DNA of 41,293 bases from a virus. A model generated the notes under the pieces. That model did no database searches. It was not told the origin of the DNA and saw nothing but the letters and a program-made list of their open reading frames with translations. Positions 17,175-26,078 of this stretch are shown here, piece by piece; position 1 is the first letter of the stretch, and each line of letters opens with the position of its first letter. The stretch is from the UHGV virus genome UHGV-0213939; one strand, written 5' to 3'. The position numbers and the translations under genes were made by a program.

Positions 17175-20855
<3,681 letters not shown>

Positions 20856-20881
<26 letters not shown>

Positions 20882-21401
20882 TCAGCAACCCCAGTATCAG
20901 TTCATCCAGCGCGGCTGCTTTGTTCATGGCTTTGATGATATCCCGTTTCAGGAAATCAACATGTCGGTTTTCCAGTTCCGGAAAACGCCGCTGCACCGAC
21001 AGGGGGATCCCGTCGAGAATACTGGCAATTTCACCTGCGATCCGCGACAACACGAAAGTACAGAATGCGGTTTCCACCACTTCAGCGGAGTCTCTGGCAT
21101 TCTTCAGTTCCTGTGCGTCGGCCTGCGCACGCGTAAGTCGATGGCGTTCGTACTCAATAGTCCCTGGCTGGAGATCTGCCTCGCTGGCCTGCCGCAGTTC
21201 TTCAACCTCCCGGCGCAGCTTTTCGTTCTCAATTTCAGCATCCCTTTCGGCATACCATTTTATGACGGCGGCAGAGTCATAAAGCACCTCATTACCCTTC
21301 CCACCACCTCGCAGAACGGGCATTCCCTGCTCCTGCCAGTTCTGAATGGTACGGATACTCGCACCGAAAATGTCAGCCAGCTGCTTTTTGTTGACTTCCA
21401 T
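20856..21401 (-). CDS. Nu1: Terminase small subunit Nu1
   Basis: 181 aa; N-terminus MEVNKKQLADIFGASIRTIQNWQEQGMP matches lambda Nu1; overlaps the start of A. Confidence 0.9.
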
Positions 21402-21578
21402 TGTTCATTCCACGGACAAAAACAGAGAAAGGAAACGACAGAGGCTAAAAAGCCCGTTTTCAGCACCTGTCGTTTCCTTTCTTTTCAGGGGGTGTTTTAA
21501 ATAAAAACATTAGGTTACGGCGAAGAAGAACGGAAACGCCTTAAACCGGAAAATTTTCATAAATAGCGAAAACCCGCG

Positions 21579-21590
21579 AGGTCGCCGCCC
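21579..21590. other. cos: cos site: 12-nt cohesive-end sequence (GGGCGGCGACCT on the minus strand), with cosB-like sequence extending to about 21410
   Basis: Reverse complement of 21490-21590 reads GGGCGGCGACCTCGCGGGTTTTCGCTATTTATGAAAATTTTCCGGTTTAAGGCGTTTCCGTTCTTCTTCG..., nearly identical to the lambda left end as I remember it. Confidence 0.85.
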
Positions 21591-21813
21591 CGTAACGGTC
21601 TGGATCACCGGAAAGGACCCGCCAACGACTTTCGCGTGCAGGCATTAAAAATTTTGCAGTTCCATGCCTAGTTGAAACCTCGATTTCTATAACATCCAAT
21701 TTTGTAAATTTAGATATAGCTCAACTTTTCCCAATGTTTTCAAGTGTATAAAAAGAATTGGCGTTACGCCATAACACTATACTTAGGATAAGTAAAGATT
21801 TTAAGGAGTTTTA

Positions 21814-22881
21814 ATGAGTCAACATCAATATTATCCACAGCTGAAATGGAAGCCTGCTGAATATGAATCTCTGATGCTTTTAGATCAAACTACGCTCTCT
21901 GGTTTTACTCCGATCATTACCATTCCAGACATAGACTGGGATTATGAAAACGAATGCTACAAGAAGAGTTTGAGTTCTTACTTATCTGACTTCGGTATTA
22001 ACCTTGCGGCATCCTGGAAAGCCAATCGTCCTGTTTTGCTGGATGTTAAATATTTAGATAAACATGGTTCGAGCCGCCATCATCCTCTAGATATGTGTAT
22101 CCAAGATGCTAGAGTAAATGGTAAGGAAATTATCCCTGTTGTTTCTCCCGCATATTCAACAAACTATATACATGCTGTTCAACGCAACTTAATCAATGGG
22201 CTCGCTATATCTATCACCCCCCAGACATGGCACCAATTCACAAGTCTGGTTAACCACTTAAATATTCATCCTAGTTTAATTGATGTAATCATTGATTTTG
22301 GAGATATTCAAAACGCAACTGATAGTTTAAAACAACAAGCATTAAGCATGGTCAACACATTATCAGGCCAAGCTCCGTGGAGAAACTTGATTTTATCTTC
22401 AACCGCATACCCGGCATCACAGGCAGGGATACCGCAACATCAAGTTCATCATATTCCGCGCCATGAATACGATCTTTGGATGTACGTAGTACAGAATTTT
22501 AGCAATGGAAGAACGCCAAGTTTTAGTGATTATCCCACCGCTAGCTCTACCATTACGAGCGTAGACCCACGCTTCATGTCTCAGTATGTCTCAGTGAGAT
22601 ATTCGAACGATACCTCATGGATCTTTGTAAAAGGTACCGCAGTTAAAGGAAATGGATGGGGCCAAACTAAAAACTTATGTACTACCCTTGTTAGTTCGCC
22701 AGAGTATCAAGTCTTTGGCTCCAAATTTAGTTGGGGGGATGATTACATTTACCAAAGATCATTAGGCGCTAACAAATCTGGCGGCTCTAAAGAATGGCGT
22801 AAAGTTGCACATACGCACCATATTACGTTAGTCGTGAGACAGCTTTATTGGTTGGCGCAGACTCAGCCTGCCAAGCCTTAA
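21814..22881 (+). CDS. Hypothetical protein (355 aa), cargo gene A of an AT-rich two-gene cassette; no family recognised
   Basis: Long ORF with a strong RBS (TAAGGAG about 8 nt upstream of the ATG). Visibly AT-richer than the flanking phage genes. No lambda counterpart at this position (lambda has bor here). Confidence 0.7.
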   Translation: MSQHQYYPQLKWKPAEYESLMLLDQTTLSGFTPIITIPDIDWDYENECYKKSLSSYLSDFGINLAASWKANRPVLLDVKYLDKHGSSRHHPLDMCIQDARVNGKEIIPVVSPAYSTNYIHAVQRNLINGLAISITPQTWHQFTSLVNHLNIHPSLIDVIIDFGDIQNATDSLKQQALSMVNTLSGQAPWRNLILSSTAYPASQAGIPQHQVHHIPRHEYDLWMYVVQNFSNGRTPSFSDYPTASSTITSVDPRFMSQYVSVRYSNDTSWIFVKGTAVKGNGWGQTKNLCTTLVSSPEYQVFGSKFSWGDDYIYQRSLGANKSGGSKEWRKVAHTHHITLVVRQLYWLAQTQPAKP

Positions 22882-23443
22882 CTTTCCAGCCTACGCGTTT
22901 CTTTAAGGCTGTTCTGACTTCAAGCCTGAGATTCGCTATTGGAATATTTTCCGCAATAATATTCCATAACTCAAATCGGGGCTTGCTTTTGATTCCTTTG
23001 GAATAGCCCCATCGTTCAAGTACGTCGATACATTCATCTTTCCAAAGCAATTGAGCGAGCATCAATGTGTCATGGTTTCGATTAAGCTTTTCTCCACGCA
23101 TGTGCTTTATAAGAATGGCGCCTTTTGGCCCAACAGAAACCGTTTTAACGCCCCACCAACCTGGGATTAACTTTAATGCTCCCTCAAGGTGTTTCTCAGC
23201 TACGACAAGAGTAACCTTGTCCATTACAGAAGAATAATGCTTGATTTGAAGAGGCAAACGCTCCAAAGAGTCATATTCACTTTTGAGCTCGTACCCGTGT
23301 ATAACACCATTTATTACAGCAATGTCTGCTCTACTGGCGCCAAGGGATATGGAAAATTCATCGACCACAAGGCAGTCTGGATCTAAATGCGATTCTTTCA
23401 AAAGCTTATGATGCACCGCGAACCTAACATCTTGATCTTTCAT
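22823..23443 (-). CDS. Hypothetical protein (206 aa) with a PD-(D/E)xK-like nuclease signature, cargo gene B, convergent with gene A
   Basis: ORF with a strong RBS (AAGGAG). N-terminal region has E29 (VVDEF), D40 (RADIAVI) and E52-L-K54 (GYELK) in the spacing expected for a restriction-endonuclease-like core. The 3' end overlaps gene A by 59 bp. Confidence 0.65.
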   Translation of the reverse strand: MKDQDVRFAVHHKLLKESHLDPDCLVVDEFSISLGASRADIAVINGVIHGYELKSEYDSLERLPLQIKHYSSVMDKVTLVVAEKHLEGALKLIPGWWGVKTVSVGPKGAILIKHMRGEKLNRNHDTLMLAQLLWKDECIDVLERWGYSKGIKSKPRFELWNIIAENIPIANLRLEVRTALKKRVGWKVKAWQAESAPTNKAVSRLT

Positions 23444-23794
23444 GACTTCTCCTTACTCCCTCCGTTATTGAATTATAGCGCACTGCATTTTACTGCATTT
23501 GAGAGATTTGACCACTTCAATCACAAAATGCTTATCTGCAGCAACAAGATTCATAGCCATACGACTATGGTGATTACCTTTTGTCTGGAAAACTGACCAT
23601 TCCACGAAGATCAGATAGGTCTATAGAATCTTGGTTTGTCATAGCGTTCGCCTTACTTTGAGATGAACCTTTGCTGCATAGGAGATCAGCCCGTCAAGGC
23701 TCACCAGCACTAACTGACTACTCAAAGGCTCATTCCAAAGGGTTTGGTTCGACGTGGTTGAGTGCGCTCCGGTGCGCGGTGAAATACCTGTACA

Positions 23795-23824
23795 AAAATG
23801 CCCCGCATCTGCGAGGCATTTTCC
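23795..23824. terminator. Putative bidirectional intrinsic terminator between Rz and the cargo cassette
   Basis: Inverted repeat AAAATGCC..CGCA..TGCG..GGCATTTT, flanked by A-run and T-run so it can act on either strand. Confidence 0.4.
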
Positions 23825-23859
23825 TGAAAGTCACGTATAAAATTTCAGTGAAATTAAAA

Positions 23860-24318
23860 TTATTTTAAGCACTGCGTCCTGATGTACTCCTGCAGGTAGT
23901 TGACCTGCGCGGTTATCTTGTCGATTCCACTTCGGAGACGGTAATAATTGAGTTCAGCATCTGCTGTAAGTCTTGGGCTTTCTCCATCGCCCATGCTGCT
24001 GGCTCCGGTCGTTGACTTTGCACAGGTGGCGGCGACTTGCAGGCGCTTACGCCCAGCAGAAACATCAGCACGAAGACTTTCGATAGTCGCGTTAGCATCA
24101 GCAAGCTCCTTTGTGTATCTGGCGTCGAGTTCTGCTACATCACGCTGACGCATCTGCATGTCAGTAATTGCCGCGTTCGCCAGCTTCAGTTCTCTGGCAT
24201 TTTTGTCGCGCTGGGCTTTGTAGGTAATGGCGTTATCACGGTAATGATTAACAGCCCATGACAGGCAGACGATGATGCAGATAACCAGAGCGGAGATAAT
24301 CGCGGTGACTCTGCTCAT
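23860..24318 (-). CDS. Rz: Spanin, inner membrane subunit Rz
   Basis: 152 aa; N-terminal TM segment and coiled coil; position after R. Confidence 0.9.
23913..24104 (-). CDS. Rz1: Spanin, outer membrane lipoprotein subunit Rz1 (embedded in Rz in the +1 frame)
   Basis: 63-aa ORF nested inside Rz with lipobox LLGVSAC and a Pro-rich segment ([14 protein letters not shown]), as in lambda Rz1. Confidence 0.75.
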
Positions 24319-24791
24319 ACCTCAATCTCTCTGACCGTTCCGCCCGCTTCTTTGAATTTTGCAATCAGGCTGTCAGCCTTATGCTCGAACTGACCATAAC
24401 CAGCGCCCGGCAGTGAAGCCCAGATATTGCTGCAACGGTCGATTGCCTGACGGATATCACCGCGATCAATCATCGGTAAAGCGCCACGCTCCTTAATCTG
24501 CTGCAATGCCACAGCGTCCTGGCTTTTCGGAGAGAAGTCTTTCAGGCCAAGCTGCTTACGGTAGGCATCCCACCAACGGGAAAGAAGCTGGTAACGTCCG
24601 GCGGCTGTTGATTTGAGTTTGGGGTTTAGCGTGACAAGTTTGCGAGGGTGATCGGAGTAATCAGTGAATAGCTCTCCGCCAACAATGACGTCATAACCAT
24701 GATTTCTGGTTTTCTGTCGTCCGTTATCAGTTCCCTCTGACCACGCCAGCATATCGAGGAACGCCTTACGTTGATTATTGATTTCCACCAT
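24315..24791 (-). CDS. R: Endolysin R (lytic transglycosylase)
   Basis: 158 aa, same as lambda R; position between S and Rz. Confidence 0.9.
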
Positions 24792-25098
24792 CTTCTACTC
24801 CGGCTTTTTTAGCAGCGAAGCGTTTGATAAGCGAACCAATCGAGTCAGTACCGATGTAGCCGATGAACACGCTCGTTATATAAGCGAGATTGCTACTTAG
24901 TCCGGCGAAGTCGAGAAGGTCACGAATGAACCAGGCGATAATGGCGCACATCGTTGCGTCGATTACTGTTTTTGTAAACGCACCGCCATTATATCTGCCG
25001 CGAAGGTACGCCATTGCAAACGCAAGGATTGCCCCGATGCCTTGTTCCTTTGCCGCGAGAATGGCGGCTAACAGGTCATGTTTTTCTGGCATCTTCAT
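24775..25098 (-). CDS. S: Holin S (dual-start MKM motif)
   Basis: 107 aa; [35 protein letters not shown] matches lambda S107/S105. Confidence 0.9.
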
Positions 25099-25340: not shown

Positions 25341-25416
25341 TGGTGCTGATTAACGGACTTGAACCGCCACCCATTCGCTTACAAGGCGACTGCTCTACCA
25401 TTGGAGCTAAACCAGC
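25341..25416 (-). tRNA. tRNA gene; anticodon read as UGU (Thr) from a manual cloverleaf fold
   Basis: Minus-strand sequence GCTGGTTTAGCTCCAATGGTAGAGCAGTCGCCTTGTAAGCGAATGGGTGGCGGTTCAAGTCCGTTAATCAGCACCA. 7-bp acceptor stem (one GU), perfect D-stem GCTC/GAGC, T-loop TTCAAGT, anticodon loop CTTGTAA, encoded CCA. Confidence 0.65.
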
Positions 25417-25421
25417 ATGTT

Positions 25422-25496
25422 TGGCGGGACAGCGTGGACTCGAACCACGATAAGAAGGTTAACAGCCTTCCGTAATGACCTTTATACGACTGACCC
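25422..25496 (-). tRNA. tRNA gene; anticodon read as GUU (Asn) from a manual cloverleaf fold
   Basis: Minus-strand sequence GGGTCAGTCGTATAAAGGTCATTACGGAAGGCTGTTAACCTTCTTATCGTGGTTCGAGTCCACGCTGTCCCGCCA. Perfect anticodon stem GAAGG/CCTTC with loop CTGTTAA, perfect T-arm CGTGG-TTCGAGT-CCACG, acceptor stem with one mismatch, encoded CCA. Confidence 0.6.
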
Positions 25497-25559: not shown

Positions 25560-26078
25560 CTAAATGGCTAATTGCATGTCAAGACTTTTAACAGCAATAT
25601 GCTTAACTTTCTCTACACGTTTACGCATTTTGAAAGCATTTTGCATTGGCTGGTATAAAACAAATAATGACGCTTTCAGGATGTCGTCAATTTCGTTTCT
25701 ACAGGTTGCCAGTGAAGGTTTTCGCCATCCCTCGCCACCACGTCCACACATCTTGCGTGGCTTTGCAGTCGCGTGATAGTAGGATGCAATTGCTCGCTTA
25801 GATGAACCATGAGCGTAGTAGCTGAGGAGGATGCCAAAGGCTTTCTTGTCAATGCACATGACGGAATCGACGACCTGAGAAATCAACATTCCATCATCAT
25901 CATTACACATTGGCCTTGTCATAACTCTTCCCGGCTCTACGCTCTCCATGAACTTCGCTATTACGCTGCTCATGCGCTTTTCCAGACGACCTGAATAAAC
26001 CCATGCTCCCCACAGTTCAAGCCAGCCACTCAGCCACTCGTGCTGCTCTTTGGTGAGGTTTAGTTCTCTTATGCTCAT
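25560..26078 (-). CDS. Q: Late antiterminator Q (phage 82 / 933W-type family)
   Basis: Motifs LELWGAWV ... RPMCNDDDGMLISQ ... LLSYYAHGSS resemble the 933W-type Q protein as I remember it (LERWGAW ... RPQCCDDDAMII ... YY); position between nin genes and the lysis cassette. Confidence 0.7.
   Translation of the reverse strand: MSIRELNLTKEQHEWLSGWLELWGAWVYSGRLEKRMSSVIAKFMESVEPGRVMTRPMCNDDDGMLISQVVDSVMCIDKKAFGILLSYYAHGSSKRAIASYYHATAKPRKMCGRGGEGWRKPSLATCRNEIDDILKASLFVLYQPMQNAFKMRKRVEKVKHIAVKSLDMQLAI

What the first reader, a model, noticed from the sequence alone, without database searches (positions are those of the whole stretch)
21600..23860. AT-rich two-gene cargo cassette (355-aa unknown protein plus 206-aa PD-(D/E)xK-like protein) between cos and Rz
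Seen in sequence: two convergent ORFs (21814-22881 plus strand, 22823-23443 minus strand) whose 3' ends overlap by 59 bp, each with a strong RBS, in DNA visibly AT-richer than the surrounding phage genes. They occupy the slot between Rz and cos where lambda carries the bor moron. The 206-aa protein has an E29 / D40 / E52-x-K54 arrangement flanked by hydrophobic strands, as in restriction-endonuclease-fold nucleases. I cannot place the 355-aa protein in any phage structural, lysis or packaging family. Inference: a horizontally acquired accessory module, plausibly a nuclease-based anti-phage or exclusion system, or a toxin/effector pair. The convergent overlapping layout would allow antisense cross-regulation.
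Basis: partly seen in the sequence, partly recalled or inferred. Interest (0 to 1): 0.8.

Follow-up and report, generated by a model that had tools for sequence, protein, structure and literature searches.

The report
P4-type β/cII gene pair in a λ-like prophage
The two genes are real, imported cargo in the slot where phage lambda carries bor, and they are relatives of the β and cII genes of satellite phage P4, so this is probably a minimal two-gene version of a known anti-phage system rather than something unknown.

Summary
Two convergent genes (21814-22881 +, 22823-23443 -) overlap by 59 bp, have strong RBSs, and lie in the lowest-GC stretch of the window (0.41 vs 0.52), between cos and Rz where related phages carry bor.

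Neither protein is unplaceable. The 355-aa protein is Pfam Beta_protein (P4 β), modelled as a TIM barrel. The 206-aa protein is NCBIfam sce7726 / Pfam Phage_P4_cII, a PD-(D/E)xK fold with E29/D40/E52/K54 invariant. RefSeq already gives both genes these family names in 126-127 of 5,426 complete E. coli genomes.

P4 gop-β-cII is a validated defence against λ and P1, and PD-λ-2 needs its β-like gene. The window has no gop, HigB-like or Xre-peptidase gene.

In 88 unique pairs from many phyla the two genes are always convergent. Eighty-four overlap, all in one reading-frame phase. The published systems look like elaborations of this two-gene core, with extra genes upstream of β.

Most likely this is a prophage defence or exclusion module: a nuclease effector controlled by β. 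That is inferred, because no gop-less pair has been tested. I rate it a new variant of a known kind, of moderate interest.

The parts
21579..21590 (.). cos cohesive-end region of the lambda-like prophage (left boundary of the slot)
   Evidence: Lambda J02459 positions 1-736 align to window 20856-21590 in reverse. The sequence aggtcgccgccc is read.
21794..23535 (.). Core of the mobile cassette: the two genes plus about 90 bp upstream of the sce7726 gene
   Evidence: This is the only stretch shared (74-76% nt) with cassettes in Edwardsiella, Klebsiella, Pantoea, Pectobacterium and viral contigs. GC is 0.412, the lowest of the window.
21814..22881 (+). β-family gene (355 aa): Pfam Beta_protein, homologue of P4 β and PD-λ-2C; predicted TIM barrel
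   Evidence: Family assignment: Pfam PF14350 E 8e-56, full length; PADLOC PD-Lambda-2_C 4e-32 and 'beta' 3.5e-10; 22% identity to P4 β.
Selection: dN/dS 0.05-0.08.
22823..23443 (-). sce7726 / P4-cII-family gene (206 aa): PD-(D/E)xK nuclease fold plus a C-terminal helical domain; tail 192-206 disordered
   Evidence: Family assignment: NCBIfam NF033832 E 2e-54; PADLOC 'cll' 4e-31; precomputed Pfam PF26915 Phage_P4_cII; 27% identity to P4 cII.
Motif: E29/D40/E52/K54 invariant.
Selection: dN/dS 0.02-0.06.
22823..22881 (.). 59-bp convergent 3' overlap: β codons 337-355 lie antisense to sce7726 codons 187-206
   Evidence: Coordinates. The overlap length is 2 mod 3, as in all 84 overlapping pairs elsewhere. 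The spacing between the β H336 codon and the sce7726 R183 codon is 73 nt here, against 34 nt in 72 of 86 pairs. That is an in-frame 39-nt expansion.
23487..23514 (-). Promoter-like site (TGGTCA-16-TAAAAT) about 45 bp upstream of the sce7726 start, inside the conserved cassette
   Evidence: Consensus scan only, and the number of sites in the region is not above chance. It lies within the conserved 23444-23535 segment. Function is not shown.
20856..21401 (-). Nu1 terminase small subunit (flank)
   Evidence: 98% identical to lambda nu1.
23860..24318 (-). Rz spanin gene (flank). Late transcription runs from here leftwards, sense through sce7726 and antisense through β.
   Evidence: ORF; annotated 'lysis protein' in RefSeq hits. 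The direction of late transcription is inferred from the lambda gene order.

Best explanation
The cassette is a gop-less member of the β/cII (Beta_protein / sce7726) module family. It was acquired horizontally and sits in the cos-Rz moron slot of a lambda-like prophage, in place of bor.

Shown here:
- The 206-aa protein has a PD-(D/E)xK nuclease fold with an invariant E-D-ExK site and a helical C-terminal domain.
- The 355-aa β protein is an orphan TIM barrel with a conserved acidic/basic/His-His constellation.
- The two genes form an ancient unit that is almost never separated. It is always convergent, usually with overlapping 3' ends in a single fixed phase.
- The two validated defence systems add genes upstream of β on this chassis: gop in P4, and a HigB-like gene plus an Xre-M78 peptidase in PD-λ-2-type loci.

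Inferred:
- In the lysogen the pair acts as an anti-phage or superinfection-exclusion module.
- The nuclease is the effector.
- β is the partner that holds it in check or senses infection. In PD-λ-2 the β-like gene is needed for defence but not for neutralising the toxin.
- Obligatory convergent transcription helps set the ratio of the two products.
For: Identity: family matches, and pairwise homology to P4 β and cII. RefSeq names P4's own cII 'sce7726 family protein' and its β 'beta family protein'.

Folds. Invariant catalytic residues.

Linkage and architecture:
- 123 of 126 loci have both genes adjacent and convergent.
- 84 of 88 unique pairs overlap, all with length 2 mod 3.
- 72 of 86 pairs have a fixed 34-nt core spacing.
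- Independent gene calls show HigB_toxin - Peptidase_M78 - Beta_protein converging on Phage_P4_cII.
- PD-Lambda-2_B scores about 1e-140 for the gene upstream of β in 4 tested members of an 11-locus cluster.

Defence link from the literature:
- gop-β-cII protects against λ and P1 (PMC9122126).
- It is triggered to kill by phage orf184 (bioRxiv 10.1101/2023.04.06.535777).
- PD-λ-2C is required for defence (PMC9519451).

Context:
- The bor slot and foreign composition.
- The pair also occurs in Rac-type and actinobacterial temperate phages and on plasmids.
- Both genes are under purifying selection.
Against: - No gop-less β/sce7726 pair has been tested for defence in anything I could find.
- In P4 the known toxic component is gop, which is absent here. 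The nuclease-as-effector idea is therefore an extrapolation.
- The published PD-λ-2 clone extends only 396 bp past gene C. If ECOR42 has a convergent sce7726 gene there, that clone defended without an intact copy, which would argue that sce7726 is not the essential effector. I could not fetch that contig.
- The window's β has Ser where 97% of the family has Arg (position 133).
- Late phage transcription would raise sce7726 sense RNA and β antisense RNA. That is awkward if β protects the phage's own host cell.
- Promoter predictions are not above chance.
Confidence: 0.55

Rival explanations
1. A selfish addiction module. The pair mainly stabilises itself and its mobile element: loss of the locus leaves a stable nuclease without its unstable or antisense-controlled partner and kills the cell. 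Any defence is a side effect.
For: - The pair is found on plasmids, prophages, satellites and islands.
- gop/β behave as toxin/antitoxin in P4.
- The pair is frequently joined to HigB/Xre modules.
- Hard-wired convergent overlap resembles the layout of some restriction-modification and antisense-controlled killer loci (my own knowledge).
Against: - The two validated relatives give real phage protection from native promoters.
- The genes are large (355 and 206 aa) and convergent, unlike typical type II pairs.
- There is no evidence that either product is toxic on its own.
Confidence: 0.15
2. A restriction-modification-like pair. β is an enzyme that modifies or marks self DNA or a nucleotide pool, and sce7726 cuts DNA that lacks the mark.
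For: - β is a TIM barrel with conserved polar residues, several of them at strand ends, as expected of an enzyme.
- Convergent R and M genes are common (my own knowledge).
Against: - The DpdA/TGT scores are no better than those of hundreds of unrelated TIM barrels. The top hit is a designed barrel.
- There is no methyltransferase or glycosylase signature.
- In PD-λ-2 the β-like gene works with a HigB-like/peptidase pair, which does not fit a modification role.
Confidence: 0.1
3. A function for the phage itself rather than for host defence, for example a DNA repair, recombination or processing nuclease, or a counter-defence factor used during lytic growth.
For: - The best structural match of sce7726 is the uncharacterized PD-(D/E)xK protein SPO1766, and one source names a family member 'DNA repair protein MmcB-like'.
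- sce7726 is co-oriented with late transcription.
- Nuclease-core relatives occur in lytic Staphylococcus and Bacillus phages without β.
Against: - The slot normally holds lysogeny-expressed morons such as bor.
- Only about 2.3% of complete E. coli genomes carry the cassette, while the flanking sequences match in about 4,450, so it is dispensable cargo.
- Most copies are in chromosomes and plasmids of bacteria from many phyla, not in phage genomes.
Confidence: 0.1
4. An inert remnant: a gop-β-cII or PD-λ-2-type system that lost its effector genes and no longer does anything.
For: No gop, HigB-like or Xre-peptidase gene is present. β carries an R133S change at a near-invariant site.
Against: - The two-gene form is the majority architecture across phyla.
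- Both genes are intact with all catalytic residues.
- dN/dS is 0.02-0.08 within this clade.
- All copies found in complete E. coli genomes are full-length.
Confidence: 0.07

Closest known systems
P4 gop-β-cII anti-phage system (Ghisotti 1990; Rousset 2022; DefenseFinder/PADLOC 'gop_beta_cll')
   Same: - Homologous β (355 aa in both; Pfam Beta_protein) and cII (sce7726 family).
- The two genes are convergent.
- The system lies next to cos in a variable cargo hotspot of a temperate element.
   Different: - No gop, the membrane protein known to be toxic.
- Only 22% and 27% identity.
- The window's cII-type protein is 206 aa, not 264 aa.
- The genes overlap by 59 bp, whereas in P4 they are 27 bp apart with a terminator between them.
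- P4 is the architectural outlier of the family.
PD-λ-2 (Vassallo 2022): HigB-like A, Xre-M78 peptidase B, β-like C
   Same: The window's β matches the PD-Lambda-2_C profile better than the P4 'beta' profile (4e-32 vs 3.5e-10). In many phyla PD-λ-2-type A-B-C operons converge on an overlapping sce7726 gene, which is the same chassis.
   Different: No A or B gene is present here. The published PD-λ-2 definition has three genes and no sce7726.
Lambda bor and other lysogeny-expressed morons in the Rz-cos slot
   Same: Same slot, foreign composition, and β has the same orientation as bor, antisense to late genes.
   Different: Unrelated proteins. bor is a single small lipoprotein gene for serum resistance, whereas this is a two-gene nuclease/TIM-barrel module.
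MmcB-like / SPO1766 (PDB 3dnx) and other PD-(D/E)xK nucleases (Can2, NucS, SdaI)
   Different: No sequence-level relationship to any solved structure. There is an extra C-terminal helical domain, and the protein is almost always paired with β.
Convergently transcribed restriction-modification and antisense-controlled killer loci (analogy only)
   Same: Two convergent genes whose transcripts must collide or pair at their 3' ends.
   Different: No modification enzyme signature and no small antisense RNA gene. Regulation here is untested.

Membership tests
gop-β-cII system (P4 type) | gop homologue immediately upstream of β | tested here: not met
   - tblastn of P4 gop against the window finds nothing better than E 3.5.
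- phmmer finds gop only in P4 among 126 loci.
- No + strand ORF of 40 aa or more lies between cos and β.
gop-β-cII system (P4 type) | β homologue (Pfam Beta_protein) | tested here: met
   PF14350 190 bits against a cutoff of 27, full length. BLASTP to P4 β gives E 3e-7.
gop-β-cII system (P4 type) | cII homologue (sce7726 / PF26915) convergent with β | tested here: met
   NF033832 184 bits against a cutoff of 70. BLASTP to P4 cII gives E 1e-18. Convergent in both the window and P4.
gop-β-cII system (P4 type) | Protection against phages (λ, P1) | not testable with these tools
   Needs plaque assays with the cloned cassette.
PD-λ-2 | HigB-like toxin gene (A) | tested here: not met
   tblastn of two A proteins against the window finds no meaningful hit; the best is E 0.68, inside the terminase gene.
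PD-λ-2 | Xre HTH + M78 (ImmA/IrrE) peptidase gene (B) | tested here: not met
   No tblastn hit in the window.
PD-λ-2 | β-like gene (C) | tested here: met
   PADLOC PD-Lambda-2_C E 4.4e-32, over the C-terminal 200 residues.
PD-(D/E)xK nuclease superfamily (206-aa protein) | Restriction-endonuclease-like α/β core fold | tested here: met
   [not shown]
PD-(D/E)xK nuclease superfamily (206-aa protein) | Conserved acidic-acidic-x-Lys catalytic motif | tested here: met
   E29, D40, E52 and K54 are invariant in 33 and in 40 sequences, including P4 cII.
PD-(D/E)xK nuclease superfamily (206-aa protein) | Metal-dependent nuclease activity | not testable with these tools
   Needs a biochemical assay.
Pfam Beta_protein family (355-aa protein) | Near-invariant residues of the family retained | tested here: inconclusive
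   24 of 26 columns that are at least 90% conserved across 150 diverse members are retained, including every polar residue of the constellation. The two exceptions are position 133 (Arg in 97% of the family, Ser here) and position 19 (Ala in 91%, Ser here).
Classical type II toxin-antitoxin pair | Small co-directional bicistronic operon, with the antitoxin neutralising the toxin | tested here: not met
   The genes are convergent and encode 355 and 206 aa. Toxicity and neutralisation were not testable.
Restriction-modification system | Recognisable DNA modification enzyme partner | tested here: not met
   β matches only Beta_protein in Pfam. It has no sequence relative among solved structures. 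Its structural hits are generic TIM barrels.
Lambdoid moron | Non-essential insert in a variable slot, with foreign composition | tested here: met
   bor occupies the slot in PhiR47_2, PhiR68_2 and PhiR34_1. The cassette is in 126 of 5,426 genomes, while the flanks match in about 4,450. GC is 0.41 against 0.52.
Lambdoid moron | Own promoter and terminator | tested here: inconclusive
   One promoter-like site lies upstream of sce7726 and no clear site upstream of β. Site counts are not above chance.

The most novel reading that the evidence does not exclude
The β/sce7726 pair is by itself a complete, autonomous anti-phage system and the ancestral core of both gop-β-cII and PD-λ-2. β would be an enzyme or ligand sensor (an orphan TIM barrel) that controls a PD-(D/E)xK nuclease. 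The phase-locked convergent 3' overlap, conserved across phyla, would be a built-in regulatory device that sets the effector/controller ratio through transcriptional collision or 3' RNA pairing. gop or HigB-like/Xre-peptidase would be optional second effectors plugged in upstream of β.
Probability: 0.3. Interest if true: 0.7.

Novelty: new variant of a known kind. Interest (0 to 1): 0.45.

Why it matters
The mechanisms of two validated E. coli defence systems, gop-β-cII and PD-λ-2, are unknown, and both contain a β-family protein. If the minimal β/sce7726 pair defends on its own, it is the simplest system in which to learn what β does and what the nuclease targets. It would also mean that the published three-gene definitions miss a widespread two-gene form, and probably a fourth PD-λ-2 gene. 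The pair is present in about 2% of complete E. coli genomes and in bacteria from many phyla. Its overlap is also an unusually clean case of a convergent gene overlap conserved across phyla.

Tried and rejected
- A gop remnant in the window: none.
- PD-λ-2 A or B genes in the window: none.
- sce7725 as the partner family of sce7726: the β partners do not match sce7725. All are Pfam Beta_protein.
- Sequence relatives with solved structures: none for β. For sce7726 there are only marginal TAF1 bromodomain hits (E 0.004; per-domain 2.5), which I judge spurious.
- The 46-aa ORF at 23465-23605 as a third gene: rejected, because cassette homology ends at about 23535, inside it.
- Promoter/terminator scan: counts are not above the shuffled expectation.
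- Rfam: nothing in the cassette.
- Retrieving the ECOR42 PD-λ-2 contig, or an enterobacterial PD-λ-2 locus: failed.
- Ghisotti 1990 is not in the held library.
Full report
**Observation.** The window is a near-complete lambda-like prophage read in reverse. Terminase A (18956-20881) and Nu1 (20856-21401) are on the minus strand, as are Rz, R and S (23860-25098) and Q (25560-26078). Lambda's left end aligns to window 20856-21590, which places cos at about 21579-21590. They converge and overlap by 59 bp, and each has AAGGAG 5 nt before its ATG. This is the lowest-GC part of the window: 0.412 against 0.518, with GC3 of 0.37-0.41 against 0.55-0.67 in terminase and structural genes. Three phages with 97-99% identical Nu1/cos carry bor plus small ORFs in this slot.

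**What the proteins are.**
- The 355-aa protein is a full-length Pfam Beta_protein (E 8e-56). It also matches the PADLOC profiles PD-Lambda-2_C (4e-32) and 'beta' (3.5e-10).
- The 206-aa protein is NCBIfam sce7726 (2e-54) and PADLOC 'cll' (4e-31). Its precomputed Pfam family is PF26915, named Phage_P4_cII.
- Both names come from satellite phage P4. In P4, gop (247-648, +), β (651-1718, +, also 355 aa) and cII (1746-2540, -) lie next to cos, and RefSeq labels P4's cII 'sce7726 family protein'.
- Direct comparison gives 22% identity to P4 β (E 3e-7) and 27% to P4 cII (E 1e-18).
- RefSeq already annotates this cassette as 'beta family protein | sce7726 family protein' in 126 of 5,426 complete E. 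coli genomes. A sensitive DNA search finds only this allele, at 99.4% identity or more, in 127 genomes.

**Structures.**
- Across 150 diverse β proteins (22-48% identical to the window's), these residues are at least 90% conserved: Y6, P8, E16, P33, D77, P108, D161, P200, R216, D239, Y240, R262, Y263, D309, W328, H335 and H336. Several sit at strand ends in the model, as expected of an enzyme or ligand-binding site.
- The window's β keeps all of these. Its only departures among the ≥90%-conserved columns are position 133, where 97% of the family has Arg and this subclade has Ser, and position 19 (Ala in 91%, Ser here).

**What is known about relatives.**
- gop-β-cII, cloned with its native promoter, protects E. 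coli against λ and P1. gop is toxic without β (PMC9122126).
- Its toxicity is triggered by phage orf184 (bioRxiv 10.1101/2023.04.06.535777).
- PD-λ-2 has a HigB-like gene (A), an Xre-peptidase gene (B) and a third gene (C) 'related to a P4 phage antitoxin'. C is not needed to neutralise the toxin but is required for defence against λvir (PMC9519451).
- The window contains no gop and no PD-λ-2 A or B.

**Comparative anatomy.**
- I fetched 43 viral loci through β and 80 genome loci through a sce7726 motif, which had 389 confirmed matches.
- The genome loci include Gamma-, Alpha- and Betaproteobacteria, Myxococcota, Firmicutes, Flavobacteriales, Gastranaerophilales, several CPR phyla, Acidobacteriota, Armatimonadota, Elusimicrobiota and Gemmatimonadetes.
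- Both genes are adjacent and convergent in 123 of 126 loci. Two of the three exceptions end at contig edges. One (L053, Xenorhabdus) truly lacks β.
- Among 88 unique pairs, 84 overlap at their 3' ends (11-158 bp, median 50), and all 84 overlaps are 2 mod 3, which is one fixed antisense phase.
- The codons of β's invariant His (H336) and sce7726's invariant Arg (R183) are exactly 34 nt apart in 72 of 86 pairs. The spacing is 73 nt (34 + 39, in frame) in the window's enterobacterial clade and 345 nt in P4.
- So the conserved cores abut tail to tail, and each gene's variable tail is encoded antisense to the end of the other gene. Stop codons fix these numbers, so they do not depend on start-codon choice. 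Shared ancestry means the 84 cases are not independent, but the arrangement has clearly survived since before these phyla exchanged the module.
- P4, the only member whose genetics has been studied, is the architectural outlier.

**A variable slot upstream of β.**
- In most loci nothing recurrent flanks the pair.
- In 11 loci from unrelated phyla, a ~400-aa gene sits directly upstream of β on the same strand (spacing -28 to +15 bp). Four members of this cluster were scanned, and all match PD-Lambda-2_B (three at E ~1e-130 to 1e-140, one at 9e-81). In 10 of the 11 it is preceded by a ~93-aa HigB-like ORF.
- Independent gene calls on other contigs show HigB_toxin, Peptidase_M78 and Beta_protein converging on Phage_P4_cII with a 50-bp overlap.
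- HigB-like plus ImmA/IrrE pairs also exist alone on plasmids. Plasmid β/sce7726 pairs occur in Agrobacterium, Rhizobium, Rhodococcus, Acinetobacter and E. coli.
- The picture is a two-gene core (β and sce7726) with a plug-in position upstream of β. That position holds gop in P4, the HigB-like gene and Xre-peptidase in PD-λ-2-type loci, and nothing in the window.
- The published PD-λ-2 clone (ECOR42 QOYB01000002, 228989-232396; system 229385-232009) extends only 396 bp past gene C. A convergent ~600-bp sce7726 gene there, if present, would have lost its 5' end. I could not retrieve that contig, so this remains a lead.

**The cassette in this window.** Homology with the 74-76%-identical cassettes of Edwardsiella, Klebsiella, Pantoea, Pectobacterium and three viral contigs runs from 21794 to about 23535. 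That covers β's RBS, both genes and ~90 bp upstream of sce7726, including a promoter-like site at 23514-23487. β's upstream region is not part of the conserved unit. Both genes are under strong purifying selection in this clade (dN/dS 0.02-0.08, with synonymous sites saturated).

**Mechanism.**
- Shown: the identity of both families, the folds, the catalytic motif, obligate linkage, the fixed overlap, the bor-slot location and the foreign composition.
- Inferred: the pair acts in the lysogen as a defence or exclusion module. The nuclease is the effector, and β is its controller or infection sensor. Convergent transcription contributes to the balance between them.
- By analogy with lambda, late transcription from pR' would run sense through sce7726 and antisense through β. 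This could shift the ratio during the prophage's own lytic growth. Whether that is harmful, neutral or useful is unknown.
- I put 0.55 on the overall defence-module explanation. Homology and anatomy are near certain, and the specific division of labour is much less so.
- The rivals are an addiction module, a restriction-modification-like pair, a function for the phage's own growth, and an inert remnant. Their evidence is listed separately.

**Verdict.** This is not an unknown system. It is a gop-less variant of a known kind, already named by automatic annotation, in a known moron slot. What may be new is the comparative result: the two-gene pair, not the published three-gene sets, is the conserved unit; its overlap is phase-locked across phyla; and PD-λ-2-type operons usually carry an unreported sce7726 gene. 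Interest is moderate.

Noticed in passing
L001-L126 (family-wide); window 22823-22881: All 84 overlapping β/sce7726 pairs share one antisense phase (overlap length 2 mod 3). In 72 of 86 pairs from many phyla, the codons of β's invariant His and sce7726's invariant Arg are exactly 34 nt apart. The window's clade has an in-frame 39-nt expansion (73 nt).
   Followed up: yes
L082, L090, L098, L102, L105, L115, L117, L119, L121-L123, L127-L132: PD-λ-2-type operons (HigB-like gene, Xre-M78 peptidase, β) converge on an overlapping sce7726/Phage_P4_cII gene that is not part of the published three-gene PD-λ-2 definition. The original ECOR42 clone ends only 396 bp past gene C, so it may have truncated such a gene.
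   Followed up: partly
window 22210-22212 (β codon 133): The window's β has Ser where 97% of 150 diverse family members have Arg. Related gammaproteobacterial members show R, K, S or T at this site. No other polar residue of the conserved constellation is changed.
   Followed up: partly
window 25341-25416 and 25422-25496 (- strand): Two tRNA genes, Thr(TGT) and Asn(GTT), lie between Q and the holin gene S. tRNA genes downstream of Q are, to my knowledge, a known feature of some lambdoid phages.
   Followed up: partly
L053:5001-5567: Xenorhabdus koppenhoeferi has a sce7726 gene with no β within 2.8 kb downstream. It is the only genuine unpaired case among the 80 genome loci.
   Followed up: no
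window 23465-23605 (- strand): A 46-aa ORF ends 22 bp upstream of the sce7726 start. Cassette homology with other genera stops at about 23535, inside it, so it is probably not a gene.
   Followed up: partly
window 23640-23860: The stretch just downstream of Rz is 87% identical to the Rz-rha junction of P22-like phages. It contains a GC-rich hairpin followed by a T-run (about 23800-23830) that looks like a terminator on either strand.
   Followed up: no
[not shown]
   Followed up: no
window 21500-23860 vs E. coli genomes and L004-L034: The sce7726 gene is at least 99.4% identical in all 127 E. coli genomes that carry it. The whole region with its prophage flanks is only 93-98% identical in some viral contigs, which suggests recent spread among lambdoid prophages.
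   Followed up: partly
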